DNA of 10,146 nt, taken from a virus. Its lineage: Duplodnaviria > Heunggongvirae > Uroviricota > Caudoviricetes. The position numbers are program-made. The DNA lies in the IMG/VR virus record IMGVR_UViG_2541047850_000007, positions 1-10,146 of that record. One strand, given 5' to 3'. Shown here in pieces: positions 6,001 to 9,000 of the stretch (positions within the stretch are counted from its first letter, which is position 1; each line of letters starts with the position of its first letter).

Positions 6001-9000
6001 CAGGTAAGCCAGTGGACCGGACAGAACGGAGAAACGCGGCAGGGCTGGCAGGTTATCGCAGACAGCGTAATCAGTGCCCGCGCGGCACGTCCAGGCGGGA
6101 ACAGACGCAAAACCACAGGCACACAGGGTAATCAGCCACCAGCGGGAGGCGATGACCCTTACGGTGATGATATTTCGTTCTGAGGGGGTGACGATGGTAC
6201 ATGACCGCATAGCGGAGGAACTGGAGGCGAAAGGCTTTTACCGGAGGGCGGCGGCGCGATGGGGTGAAGTCATGCAGCTGGTGGAGACAGACAAGGAACG
6301 GCATCACATCACGATGCGACGGCTGGAATGTTCAAGGAAGGCACAGAGGGCACCGGAGCCGCCGGATAATTTCGGAGACCTGAAAAAGGCAGTCGATCGC
6401 ACTTATGCCGAAATGGGTATAGATGGTGCTGGTGATGAAATATGGCGCAATTACCAGGACAGCTAATCAAACAGCCGGAGAAATCCGGCTTTTTTTGCAC
6501 CAGTTGAAACGGTATGGCGCATTACCGGGTTTTCGTCACGGTCAGGCATAGTTACTATCTGAAACAAACAGACACAACAGAGGAAAAAAACAATGCCGAT
6601 GAAATTTGATGAGATATTAAAACAGCGTGATAAATACCATGCTGACAACATGGAGACGATGAGCATCAATGATTACCGCGCATTCCTGGAGACGGGCGCA
6701 CTGATTGAAAAGGATCAGCATGGTTTTGTGAGATGTGCTCTATCCGGTGAAATGCTGGCGGTAAATCCTGAACAGATAGATGCATTGATAGAATTTCTGA
6801 AAGAGATCAGAGACTGAGCCAGCACACAGCACACATAGCCGGAGCAATCCGGCTTTTTTGCGCCCAAAAAAAGCCCGATAAGGTCAGAGGGTTCTTATCG
6901 GGCTTTTGCATATGAGGTTTTTGGATGCACTGGCGTTCGTGATCGGGATAATCATTTCATAATTTGCAACATAACTCAATATCATTGCATAAAATGCAAT
7001 TCTGATTATAATCAGGACTGGATAAACATCCAGTTATGATTTTTTTAGTCGAAGAGGAATTTCTTACTATGGCTGAAGAGAAAAAAGGCGGTGTTTCGGT
7101 GTACATAAGCCCCGAAATCGTGGAGGTGCTCAAGCAGCGCCACAAAAAAAACTATGAAGCTGGCGTTGCGGCTGGACTGGATCCGCTGATGACGCCGGAG
7201 CCGTCGATAGGTTCACTTGTACGCTCTTATTTACTTGCGGCGCTTGGGATGCATAAAAATTATGGGGGTGAATAATGGCAGGCAAAGCAACGGCACTTAA
7301 CACTAACCAGCTTTTCATGTACCTGAATCGCGGGGATATTGCGGATTTTAAATTCAGCCCTCTGTTTACCACGCTGTTTTTCCCGAACGTGGCGACATTC
7401 AGCACGCAAAACATCATGCTGGATACCCTGGACATTGAAGAAGTCACCATGTCGGCGTTTTGTTCGCCTATGGTGGGTAGCCAGGTTCAGCGCGATAAAG
7501 GGTACGAAACCAGCACAATCAAACCTGGCTACATGAAGCCAAAGCACGAAATCGATCCAACGAAAACCATCATGCGCATGGCTGGAGAAGATCCGGCACA
7601 GCTTAACGACCCTACCTATCGCCGTATGCGCCTGATTACTGGCAACATGCGCCGCCAGATAAACGCCATTAAGGCACGCGTGGAATGGCTGGCGGTGAAT
7701 GCGGTAACGACCGGAAAAAACATCATTGAGGGCGAAGGCATAGAACGCTATGAAATCGACTGGAAAATACCGGAAAACTGCATCATAGAGCAGGCCAAGG
7801 GTAAAAAATGGTCCGAGCAGGATAAAGACATGCACGACCCAATCTATGACATCGAGCTTTATGCTGATCAGGCTGGTTGCCCCGCAAACGTCATGATTAT
7901 GGGCGCTGAGGTATGGCGCACATTACGCAGCTTTAAAAAATTCCGTGAGCTGTACGATCTTTCCCGTGGTTCAGAATCCGCCGCCGAACTGGCCTGTAAA
8001 AACCTGGGCGAAGTGGTGAGCTTTAAAGGCTATCTTGGTGATCTGGCCCTTATCGTCTATTCCGGCAAATACACTGACAGCGATGGTACCGAAAAATATT
8101 TCCTTGAGCCTGATTTGCTGGTCCTGGGTAACACCAACAATAAAGGGCTGGTGGCCTATGGTGCGATTATGGAACAGGAAGCGGTAAGAACGGGCGCAAC
8201 GCAAAACATGTTTTACCCGAAAAACTGGATTGAAGACGGCGATCCGGCGATTGAGTACGTGCAGACACACAGCGCACCGCAGCCTGTTCCGGCAGATATT
8301 CGCAAATTTGTTACCGTCAAAATTGGTTAACGGTGGATTCTATGAACACTCCATACATTGAGTTATTTGCAGGCAGTCAGCAGGTATCAACGACGCTGGT
8401 ACATTTTGCCGCTGATGCTGGCGTTATTCAGGAATTTACCCCGCTGATGCTGGCGGACAATGGCGAGTTTAAGCCGTGGGATGGTCAGGAATCTGGCAAG
8501 GCTGTTTATCTGACCTCGTACCCCGTTGACACGTCGACGCAGAAATCAGCACAGTGCTATAAGACGGGGATATTCAATATCGCCGCCGTTAACTGGCCTG
8601 AGAGCGTCGACACCGATGCGAAAAAATGCGCCGCCTTTGCGGGTTCTGGCGTATCCGTTCAGCCGCTGGCCCGATAAGCAGGGGGAACGATGGCAACGAA
8701 TGAAAGCATCATGGCGCTACCGCTGGCGAGTAAATTTAAAGCCGAAGCGCGGGCAATGGCTGACAGAGGGTTATCAACCTACGAGGCCGTATATCAACTC
8801 AACAAACTGGAAGAACAGGACAAGCCGCGCGCTGATGCGATTATGGCGCTTCATGAACATAACGACTATCAGCCGCTGTTACGTGCAATGGCAAACGTGC
8901 CATGTATTAGCGTCGATAATGCTCGTGAAATCCTGAACATGACCATAGAGCAGGAGCGCCCAAAGGTTGCACCAGAGCTTACCGCAGCCTTTGAAAACTT

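What the first reader, a model, noticed from the sequence alone, without database searches (positions are those of the whole stretch)
7036..7275. Unknown 68-aa protein translationally coupled upstream of the capsid gene
Its stop overlaps the capsid start codon (TAATG), implying stoichiometric co-expression with the major capsid protein. It is a candidate scaffold, chaperone or capsid-size determinant. The VSVYISPEIVEVLKQ segment is also compatible with an RHH-like DNA-binding fold, so a regulatory role is possible. The start codon is ambiguous (7036 or 7069).
Basis: inference. Interest (0 to 1): 0.5.

Follow-up and report, generated by a model that had tools for sequence, protein, structure and literature searches.

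The report
Small regulator-like gene heading satellite capsid operon
This is a real, conserved 68-amino-acid gene at the head of the capsid operon of an E. coli phage satellite; it looks more like a small DNA-binding switch for that operon than a capsid-building helper, and it is of modest interest.

Summary
The ORF is real. It starts at ATG 7069 (68 aa), not 7036, and its TAA shares one base with the capsid ATG (7273-7277). The window is an EcCICFT073-type Gram-negative PICI, a phage satellite. The ORF is the first gene of its late operon, ahead of the lambda E-like capsid, D-like decoration, Nu3-like and Nu1-like genes.

The ORF is under purifying selection (dN/dS 0.03-0.26). It is intact in 78 of 79 loci retrieved through the capsid gene. 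It is absent from 50,697 phage records and has no Pfam family (phrog_3255, unknown function).

The upstream ATG at 7036 lies in the 3' arm of a conserved terminator-like hairpin. Most relatives carry a stop codon between it and 7069.

Best reading (confidence about 0.45): a ribbon-helix-helix-like DNA-binding protein that autoregulates the late promoter. The candidate targets are two conserved TTGCA-N5-TGCAA palindromes, one of which overlaps the -35 hexamer. The fold evidence is weak but points one way: strand-helix-helix model, TraM and NikR as top structural neighbours, sub-threshold RHH Pfam hits.

A capsid scaffold or size role is not supported. Two old alleles of the ORF sit on near-identical capsids. 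A distant homologue heads an operon with a different capsid family. In EcCICFT073 the whole block can be replaced by cas9 without losing transfer.

The parts
7069..7275 (+). Small ORF: 68 aa plus stop (MAEEKKGGVSVYISPEIVEVLKQRH...GGE). Predicted extended segment at residues 8-14, helix 15-34, loop, helix 47-58.
   Evidence: ORF list and sequence. Start fixed by comparison with relatives. dN/dS 0.03-0.26. AF2 mean pLDDT 76.9. phrog_3255 E = 1.6e-54, unknown function.
7036..7068 (+). The 11 extra codons of the 79-aa reading. They are not coding: they cover the hairpin 3' arm, the U-run and the Shine-Dalgarno sequence.
   Evidence: Most relatives have an in-frame TAA here, or lack the ATG.
6955..6969 (.). 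Box 1: imperfect palindrome TTTCATAATTTGCAA, a candidate operator.
   Evidence: Repeat family D1. 12 of 15 positions invariant, entropy 0.05 bits against 0.39-0.66 in the flanks. The pattern is enriched in the window: 4 matches against 0.8 expected by chance.
6985..6999 (.). Box 2: perfect palindrome TTGCATAAAATGCAA, 30 bp from box 1. It overlaps the -35 hexamer and the spacer.
   Evidence: Also present upstream of the divergent homologues in L083, L086, L089 and L082.
6985..7012 (+). Candidate sigma-70 promoter of the late operon: -35 TTGCAT (6985-6990), 16-nt spacer, perfect -10 TATAAT (7007-7012).
   Evidence: Read from the sequence. The -10 has entropy 0.04 bits. The consensus scan did not list it because its -35 matches only 3 of 6; that scan listed a weaker site at 6956-6985.
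7010..7046 (+). Terminator-like hairpin (arms 7010-7023 and 7028-7041, loop AAAC) followed by U7 (7040-7046). It contains ATG 7036.
   Evidence: 92% of cells paired, 3 pairs changed on both sides, G-U pairs present. Folding z-score -4.3 in the window and -5.2 in L023.
7052..7059 (+). Shine-Dalgarno sequence AAGAGGAA for the 7069 start.
   Evidence: Entropy 0.05 bits; conserved in all lineages.
7264..7277 (+). Capsid Shine-Dalgarno (GGGGGTGA) inside the last codons of the small ORF, followed by the TAATG stop/start overlap.
   Evidence: This nucleotide constraint probably explains the conserved C-terminal G-G-E.
7275..8330 (+). Lambda E-like major capsid protein (351 aa).
   Evidence: Pfam Phage_cap_E E = 1.4e-49. 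43% identical to lambda E.
8333..8677 (+). Lambda D-like head decoration protein (114 aa).
   Evidence: Pfam HDPD E = 3.7e-18. 37% identical to lambda D.
8690..9103 (+). 137-aa protein; matches the C-terminal part of a head-maturation-protease family, so possibly Nu3-like.
   Evidence: phrog_1999 E = 4e-64; phrog_53 positions 494-567, E = 7e-10.
9311..9853 (+). Nu1-like small terminase homologue (180 aa). It sits where EcCICFT073 has RppA.
   Evidence: Pfam Phage_Nu1 E = 9e-23. 34% identical to lambda Nu1. CFT073 map.
6837..6907 (+). Two intrinsic terminators (6837-6859 and 6869-6907) that separate the replication/PerC genes from the late operon.

Best explanation
The 68-aa protein is most likely a small ribbon-helix-helix (RHH)-type DNA-binding protein. 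It would be the first gene, and the autoregulator, of the satellite's late (capsid) operon.

Proposed mechanism:
1. Two chains pair their N-terminal strands (V9-S14) into a beta-ribbon.
2. Dimers read the four TGCA-centred half-sites of two 15-bp palindromes: box 1 (6955-6969) and box 2 (6985-6999). The half-sites lie 9 bp apart within a box, and the boxes lie 30 bp apart.
3. Box 2 covers the -35 hexamer and spacer of the TTGCAT-16-TATAAT promoter. Binding would therefore occlude RNA polymerase and hold expression of the capsid, decoration, Nu3-like and TerS-like genes at a set level until the satellite is induced or amplified.

Shown: the gene is real and conserved; its start is 7069; it is always the first gene after the promoter; the palindromes, -10 and Shine-Dalgarno sequence are phylogenetic footprints; the protein is satellite-specific.

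Inferred: the RHH fold (weak evidence), DNA binding, the identity of the target, and repression rather than activation.
For: 1. Topology. AF2 gives an extended segment at residues 8-14, helix 15-34 and helix 47-58. Mean pLDDT is 69.8 with 8 sequences and 76.9 with 12.
3. Sub-threshold Pfam hits. The repeated weak hits are to two RHH families, in register on the strand and helix 1: BrnA_antitoxin in 4 of 15 members (best E 0.017) and RHH_1 in 3 of 15 (best 0.15).
4. Resemblance to TraM. The invariant residues P45-S46-x-G48 sit at the N-terminus of helix 2, and S/T10-Y12-S14 alternate with hydrophobic residues on the strand. In TraM, Lys3, Gln5 and Tyr7 of the ribbon read bases, and the N-terminus of helix 2 (Ser32, Ser34) holds the phosphates (PMC3159463).
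5. Genomic logic. The ORF is the first gene after a promoter with two conserved palindromes, one over the -35. Box entropy is 0.05 and 0.17 bits against 0.39-0.66 in the flanks.
6. Co-occurrence. The boxes and the ORF occur together in every lineage, including islands without PerC (26 of 73 allele A or B loci, and 8 of 8 divergent ones). The boxes are absent upstream of alpA.
7. Independence from the capsid family. The distant homologue P0034 follows an iteron origin and TTGCA-type palindromes, and heads an operon whose head protein belongs to another family (phrog_617).
8. Mosaic structure. The promoter, boxes and strand-coding 5' end are 88-92% identical between alleles, while the rest of the ORF is 70-78% identical.
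Against: - No significant sequence or profile match to any RHH family. The Pfam hits are far below the gathering scores. hhalign against the TraM N-domain gives probability 9%. Pairwise z-scores against TraM are mostly at noise level.
- The structural scores are weak, and unrelated helical fragments score similarly.
- DSSP assigns no strand in the monomer model, and no dimer could be modelled.
- The putative DNA-facing residues are Ser/Thr, Tyr and Ser with no Arg, Asn or Gln. The protein is near neutral (pI 6.7), although the TraM N-domain is too (pI 6.6).
- A 15-bp palindrome with half-sites one turn apart would equally suit a helix-turn-helix dimer from the island, the helper phage or the host.
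- The function of the conserved hairpin directly after the -10 is unexplained. It may mean the real control is by termination and antitermination.
Confidence: 0.45

Rival explanations
1. Capsid assembly factor. The protein is made together with the E-like capsid protein and binds it, or binds helper head proteins, as a small scaffold, chaperone or size determinant. The analogy is the 72-aa CpmB of the SaPI satellites.
For: - The ORF is linked to a capsid gene in the same operon in every lineage.
- The stop/start overlap is kept in 87 of 88 loci.
- It is satellite-specific and absent from 50,697 phage records.
- Small helical satellite proteins that remodel capsids are a known kind (established knowledge: CpmB, Sid, TcaP).
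Against: - Alleles A and B (69% identical, dS about 0.73) sit on capsids that are 94-96% identical, so there is no co-variation.
- The distant homologue is separated from a head protein of a different family by two other ORFs.
- There is no similarity to lambda C, Nu3, D, E, W, FI or FII, or to any PDB chain.
- EcCICFT073 DNA is packaged only in phage-sized capsids, and deleting c1499 or c1500 changes neither transfer nor interference (PMC6092414).
- The whole block can be replaced by cas9 and the island still transduces (PMC10530653).
- The capsid gene has its own Shine-Dalgarno sequence.
Confidence: 0.15
2. Protein-protein modulator. The small protein, RHH-like or not, acts by binding a helper-phage or satellite protein rather than DNA. 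It could be a sensor of, or an inhibitor of, a helper late protein. The two alleles would then reflect different partners.
For: - The allelic divergence is concentrated in the end of helix 1, the loop and helix 2, while the N-terminal strand is conserved. In other satellites, regulators diversify to match helper proteins (established knowledge: SaPI Stl).
- The protein has a neutral pI and few basic residues.
Against: - No partner is indicated by any data here.
- The alleles do not correlate with the TerS-like or RppA type of downstream gene.
- The conserved palindromes next to the gene are then left without a binder.
- The block is dispensable for phi80-mediated transfer.
Confidence: 0.15
3. 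The ORF matters only as a translated leader that opens or couples translation of the capsid gene. Alternatively, it is a chance ORF.
For: - The stop/start overlap is conserved.
- The C-terminal GGE codons coincide with the capsid Shine-Dalgarno sequence.
Against: - Strong purifying selection acts on the amino-acid sequence: dN/dS is 0.03-0.26, and 10 distinct allele A nucleotide sequences encode the identical protein.
- Conserved residues are spread through the protein, and homologues are recognisable at 43-56% identity in other lineages.
- The ORF is intact in 78 of 79 loci.
Confidence: 0.03

Closest known systems
N-terminal ribbon-helix-helix domain of TraM (F-like plasmids; PDB 3OMY, 3ON0, 1DP3)
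   Same: - It is the top structural neighbour by two methods on two models.
- Both have a V-x-x-Y-I-S strand motif followed by a long helix 1 that ends near E-(A/G)-G.
- Both have a longer-than-usual loop and a Ser-rich N-terminus of helix 2.
- Both domains are near neutral in charge.
- TraM binds repeated short palindromic motifs with its beta-ribbon (PMC3159463) and represses its own promoter (established knowledge).
   Different: - Homology is not demonstrated: hhalign probability 9%, and pairwise z-scores mostly at noise level.
- The small ORF has no tetramerisation or TraD-binding C-terminal domain.
- The candidate DNA motif differs (TGCA, against GANTC or A(G/C)CG(G/C)T).
- The context is a satellite late operon, not a plasmid oriT.
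First-gene RHH autorepressors (CopG of pMV158, Arc and Mnt of P22, RHH antitoxins such as BrnA)
   Same: - Small size (45-90 aa).
- First gene of the operon, often overlapping the next gene.
- Operator repeats over the -35 and -10 region.
- Sub-threshold Pfam hits to RHH_1 and BrnA_antitoxin, in register.
   Different: - No match reaches a family threshold.
- The loop between the helices is about 10 residues longer.
- The strand lacks the usual Arg, Asn or Gln residues.
- The regulated genes are head proteins of a phage satellite.
Satellite capsid-size and scaffold proteins (SaPI CpmB, P4 Sid, PLE TcaP, SaPIbov5 Ccm)
   Same: A satellite-encoded protein, small in the case of CpmB, that lies in the morphogenesis module and is absent from the helper phage.
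   Different: - No sequence or fold match.
- The related island makes no small capsids, and the module is dispensable for transfer (PMC6092414, PMC10530653).
- The ORF does not co-vary with the capsid.
phrog_3255 and the RefSeq proteins WP_000796968.1 and WP_000796960.1 (hypothetical proteins)
   Same: This is the same protein family: phrog_3255 E = 1.6e-54 over the full length. The identical gene lies in EcCICFT073 directly before c1499.
   Different: These records carry no function. The PHROG profile is 79 positions long, so it includes the 11 spurious N-terminal codons.

Membership tests
Ribbon-helix-helix (RHH / MetJ-Arc) superfamily | N-terminal beta-strand followed by two helices in about 45-60 residues | tested here: inconclusive
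   AF2 gives an extended, non-helical segment at residues 8-14, then helices 15-34 and 47-58 at pLDDT 77. DSSP assigns no strand in the monomer, as expected if the strand forms only in a dimer.
Ribbon-helix-helix (RHH / MetJ-Arc) superfamily | Significant sequence or profile match to a curated RHH family | tested here: not met
   Only sub-threshold hits: BrnA_antitoxin E = 0.017 (15.9 bits against a cut-off of 26.1) and RHH_1 E = 0.15 (12.5 bits against 20.5). No NCBIfam hit. No RHH chain in the PDB sequence search at E <= 10.
Ribbon-helix-helix (RHH / MetJ-Arc) superfamily | Significant structural similarity to a solved RHH domain | tested here: inconclusive
Ribbon-helix-helix (RHH / MetJ-Arc) superfamily | Obligate dimer with an intertwined two-stranded antiparallel ribbon | not testable with these tools
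Ribbon-helix-helix (RHH / MetJ-Arc) superfamily | Sequence-specific binding to repeated operator sites, usually at its own promoter | not testable with these tools
   Candidate sites exist and are conserved (boxes 6955-6969 and 6985-6999), but binding was not measured.
TraM N-terminal domain family | Detectable homology to the TraM RHH domain | tested here: not met
   hhalign of A3 against a TraM N-domain alignment: probability 9%, 16 columns. Shuffle z-scores range from -0.1 to 4.5 and most are not significant.
Satellite capsid-size or scaffold proteins (CpmB, Sid, TcaP, Ccm) | Sequence or fold similarity to a known member | tested here: not met
Satellite capsid-size or scaffold proteins (CpmB, Sid, TcaP, Ccm) | The satellite produces small capsids that depend on the gene | not testable with these tools
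   Literature on the sister island EcCICFT073: all packaged DNA is phage-sized (PMC6092414), and the block containing the ORF is replaceable (PMC10530653). This argues against membership, but the window's own island was not tested.
Lambda head-assembly proteins (C/Nu3, D, W, FI, FII) | Sequence similarity | tested here: not met
   BLASTP with word size 2 gave no hit better than E = 6.6 to any lambda head protein.
EcCICFT073-type Gram-negative PICI (context of the gene) | int, alpA and a primase/replication gene in one direction, followed by a late zone, integrated at a chromosomal site | tested here: met
   The ORF map and Pfam hits for the late-zone genes. The region is 99.8-100% identical to islands lying between roxA and phoQ in E. 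coli genomes. EcCICFT073 has the same layout.

The most novel reading that the evidence does not exclude
The small protein could be the missing switch of the Gram-negative PICI late module. It would be a two-allele, immunity-like RHH repressor that keeps the satellite's own E/D capsid genes silent. A helper-phage product would relieve the repression, or it would be bypassed by Q-type antitermination through the conserved hairpin at 7010-7046. In that case these 'classical' PICIs would carry a conditionally expressed capsid system intermediate between classical and capsid-forming PICIs. Alternatively, it could be a new lambda-type capsid-remodelling factor.
Probability: 0.12. Interest if true: 0.6.

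Novelty: new member of a known kind. Interest (0 to 1): 0.3.

Why it matters
About one E. coli genome in nine (595 of 5,426 complete genomes) carries this module, including O157:H7, O55:H7 and CFT073. Yet no phenotype has been found for the satellite's own capsid and decoration genes.

If the 68-aa protein is the regulator of that operon, it is the handle for finding out when these genes are expressed. It also identifies a compact, well-defined promoter, operator and terminator cassette in a satellite that is already used as a delivery vehicle.

If it is not a regulator, it remains a conserved satellite-only protein of unknown role. Either way the annotation can be corrected: 68 aa, not 79.

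Tried and rejected
- Word-indexed homologue search and full HMMER profile search of 1.84 billion representatives. Only about 16 hits, all from enterobacterial satellites, so no annotated relative was reached.
- Scan of GTDB species-representative genomes: nothing found.
- tblastn against 50,697 phage records: no match.
- PDB sequence search with the family profile: no meaningful hit.
- Pfam and NCBIfam scans: nothing above threshold.
- hhalign and shuffle tests against TraM: not significant. I therefore do not claim homology to TraM.
- Foldseek against BFVD: no informative named hit.
- The afdb50 library was unavailable.
- Rfam scan of the whole window: no family, so the hairpin is not a described RNA.
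- The operator motif in phage lambda occurs no more often than chance. A role as repressor of helper promoters is therefore not supported for lambda.
- PerC as the binder of the boxes was rejected, because the boxes persist in islands without PerC.
- AlpA as the binder is disfavoured, because there are no boxes near alpA.
- The 7036 start was rejected.
- The PDB searches for the 137-aa and 180-aa neighbours found nothing.
- No paper mentions the protein accessions or the PHROG family.
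Full report
**What the window is.**
The 10,146-bp window is a complete or nearly complete Gram-negative phage-inducible chromosomal island (PICI) of the EcCICFT073 type. All the genes below read on the + strand:
- Tyrosine integrase (1-1239) and an alpA-like gene (1562-1858).
- A 610-aa ORF (3411-5243) at the position of the primase gene in the sister islands; I did not scan it myself.
- SSB (5773-6183) and a PerC-family regulator (6188-6466).
- A 74-aa ORF (6593-6817).
- Two intrinsic terminators (6837-6907).
- A late module: the small ORF in question, a lambda E-like major capsid gene (7275-8330), a D-like decoration gene (8333-8677), a 137-aa ORF with similarity to the C-terminal part of head-maturation proteases (8690-9103), a Nu1-like small terminase homologue (9311-9853) and a 93-aa ORF.

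The 601 bp around the finding occur in 595 of 5,426 complete E. coli genomes. In O157:H7 and in CFT073 the island lies between roxA and phoQ. CFT073 carries the experimentally studied island EcCICFT073. The same small ORF (WP_000796960.1) sits there directly before c1499, the capsid homologue (PMC6092414).

**The observation.**
The ORF and the TAATG overlap are real. The ORF is coding:
- Within allele A, 12 distinct nucleotide sequences encode almost one protein (dN/dS 0.03). Within allele B dN/dS is 0.11, and between alleles it is 0.26.
- 45 of 75 variable sites are third codon positions.
- Of 79 loci retrieved independently through the capsid protein, 78 have an intact 68-aa ORF with the overlap.

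**The start codon.**
The start is ATG 7069.
- In most relatives the frame upstream is closed by TAA (TTTTTTAAGTC instead of the window's TTTTTTTAGTC), or the 7036 ATG is CTG, GTG or ATA.
- Homologues from Salmonella and other lineages begin MSKEK or MESTPE, aligned with 7069.
- The Shine-Dalgarno sequence AAGAGGAA (7052-7059) is almost invariant.
- ATG 7036 is part of the 3' arm of a conserved hairpin (arms 7010-7023 and 7028-7041), and the next three 'codons' are its U-run. The hairpin is 92% paired across 21 distinct sequences, has three pairs with changes on both sides plus several G-U pairs, and folds with z = -4.3 to -5.2.

**Distribution.**
The family is tiny and satellite-specific.
- A word-indexed search and an exhaustive HMMER profile search of 1.84 billion representatives found only about 16 hits. 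These were E. coli alleles A and B, Salmonella forms with a Gly/Ala/Ser-rich N-terminal insert, and three further lineages (P0027, P0028, P0034).
- There is no match in 50,697 phage records.
- There is no Pfam or NCBIfam family.
- The family corresponds to phrog_3255, function unknown.
- I found no paper that names it.

**Context.**
In the E. coli and Salmonella satellites whose neighbourhoods were read, the ORF is the first gene of the late zone, directly before the E-like capsid and D-like decoration genes. This includes satellites embedded in the head genes of lambda-like prophages.

The most distant homologue (P0034, locus L082) follows an iteron-type origin. It heads an operon with two small ORFs, a head protein of a different family (phrog_617) and a tailspike gene. 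The constant feature is therefore 'first gene of a satellite late operon that contains a capsid gene'. It is not 'neighbour of an E-like capsid'.

**Upstream DNA.**
Between the terminators and the ORF lie two 15-bp palindromes: TTTCATAATTTGCAA (6955-6969) and TTGCATAAAATGCAA (6985-6999), 30 bp apart.
- The second overlaps the -35 of a TTGCAT-16-TATAAT promoter.
- Across 55 distinct upstream sequences the boxes, the -10 and the Shine-Dalgarno sequence are phylogenetic footprints (0.04-0.17 bits). The inter-box and upstream DNA are not (0.39-0.66 bits).
- Related TTGCA...TGCAA motifs precede the divergent homologues, including L082.
- The boxes persist in islands that lack PerC and are absent upstream of alpA.
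- Lambda has no more copies of the motif than chance predicts.
- The adjacent small ORF is therefore the only island gene that always travels with the boxes.

**Fold.**
- Two AF2 runs (8 and 12 sequences) give the same topology: an extended segment at residues 8-14, helix 15-34, a 12-residue loop and helix 47-58, with mean pLDDT 69.8 and 76.9.
- The only Pfam families hit repeatedly at sub-threshold level are two RHH families, aligned in register on the strand and helix 1.
- The invariant residues P45-S46-x-G48 at the start of helix 2, and the alternating pattern V-S/T-V-Y-I-S on the strand, resemble TraM. There, ribbon residues 3, 5 and 7 read bases and the helix-2 N-terminus binds phosphates (PMC3159463).
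- None of this is statistically significant. hhalign against TraM gives 9% probability, and shuffle tests are mostly at noise level. I call the protein RHH-like and do not file it as a proven member.

**Against a capsid-assembly role.**
- Alleles A and B differ by 31% in protein and by dS of about 0.73. The difference is confined to roughly 7100-7270. The capsids downstream are 94-96% identical, and the promoter and 5' end are 88-92% identical. This is an old allelic cassette moved by recombination, not a partner co-evolving with the capsid.
- The alleles combine freely with TerS-like or RppA-type downstream genes.
- There is no similarity to lambda head proteins or to any solved chain.
- EcCICFT073 DNA is packaged only in phage-sized heads, and deleting c1499 or c1500 affects neither transfer nor interference (PMC6092414).
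- In the 2019 interference screen, clones of c1499 to at least c1504 were tested and only c1503 (rppA) blocked lambda. I saw no clone of the small ORF. The c1499 clone starts inside it (primer at L092 13557), so the small ORF was apparently not tested alone (PMC6739421).
- The engineered island 'c1498-c1501::cas9' replaces L092 12950-15500. That interval covers perC, the small ORF with its promoter, the capsid, the decoration gene and the 137-aa ORF. The island is still transduced by phi80 delta-cosN (PMC10530653).
- The overlap with the capsid start does not imply 1:1 synthesis. The capsid gene has its own G-rich Shine-Dalgarno sequence within the last codons of the small ORF, which also explains the conserved C-terminal GGE.

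**Best explanation and rivals.**
| Reading | Confidence |
|---|---|
| RHH-type autoregulator of the late promoter, with dimers reading the four TGCA-centred half-sites and box 2 occluding the -35 | about 0.45 |
| Capsid assembly or size factor | about 0.15 |
| Protein-protein modulator whose alleles match different partners | about 0.15 |
| Mere coupling leader or chance ORF (essentially excluded by selection on the protein) | about 0.03 |

The rest is 'something else'.

**Unexplained.**
A terminator-like RNA hairpin is conserved immediately after a perfect -10. A transcript started from that -10 would lack the 5' arm. The hairpin therefore either stops transcripts that begin upstream (the scan lists a weaker promoter at 6956-6985) or belongs to a termination/antitermination control that a lambdoid helper could override. 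This is untested.

**Verdict.**
This is an uncharacterised but probably ordinary kind of small regulator in a well-studied satellite family. Interest is modest.

Noticed in passing
window 7010-7046: A conserved terminator-like RNA hairpin (12-14 bp stem, U6-7 run) starts inside or directly after the perfect -10 TATAAT. It shows compensatory changes and G-U pairs. Its role is unknown: it could insulate against read-through, act as a leader terminator, or be a target for helper Q antitermination.
   Followed up: partly
window about 7100-7270, compared with L040 and 37 other loci: The small ORF exists as two old alleles (69% aa identity, dS about 0.73). The divergence is confined to the C-terminal two-thirds of the ORF, between a conserved promoter and 5' end and a 94-96% identical capsid. 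This is a recombining cassette reminiscent of phage immunity regions.
   Followed up: partly
window 7275-8677: The gene order is E-like capsid then D-like decoration, the reverse of lambda (D then E). The module is therefore not a simple block captured from a helper phage.
   Followed up: no
window 8690-9103: The 137-aa ORF matches only the C-terminal part of a head-maturation-protease PHROG (phrog_53 positions 494-567). It may be a Nu3-like scaffold fragment without the protease.
   Followed up: no
window 9311-9853, compared with L092 15660-16094: This island has a 180-aa Nu1-like TerS homologue where EcCICFT073 has the 144-aa RppA. Both types occur with either allele of the small ORF.
   Followed up: partly
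protein P0023 (two contigs): A natural fusion of the first 52 or so residues of PerC to the last 26 residues of the small ORF. It apparently arose by a deletion between PEP motifs that removes the 74-aa ORF, the terminators, the promoter and the boxes. It is annotated as a PerC family regulator.
   Followed up: no
L082 1-4468: A metagenomic satellite-like contig with an iteron origin, a distant homologue of the small ORF, an HK97-type head protein (phrog_617) and a 641-aa protein with a P22-type tailspike N-domain. A satellite that carries its own tailspike would be unusual.
   Followed up: partly
L083-L085 (for example L083 7001-14213): A satellite with the small ORF, E-like and D-like trio lies immediately upstream of a truncated portal gene, followed by the protease, D, E, FI and FII genes of a lambda-like prophage. 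This is the helper-embedded configuration described in PMC10111431.
   Followed up: no
window 7003-7014: The -10 hexamer sits in a perfect 12-bp palindrome, TGATTATAATCA, that is conserved in the E. coli and Salmonella islands. It may be a further protein-binding site or a coincidence of the TATA core.
   Followed up: no
window 6593-6817: The 74-aa ORF (phrog_1957, unknown function) upstream of the terminators is present in 18 of 35 allele A loci but only 3 of 38 allele B loci. This is probably linkage.
   Followed up: no
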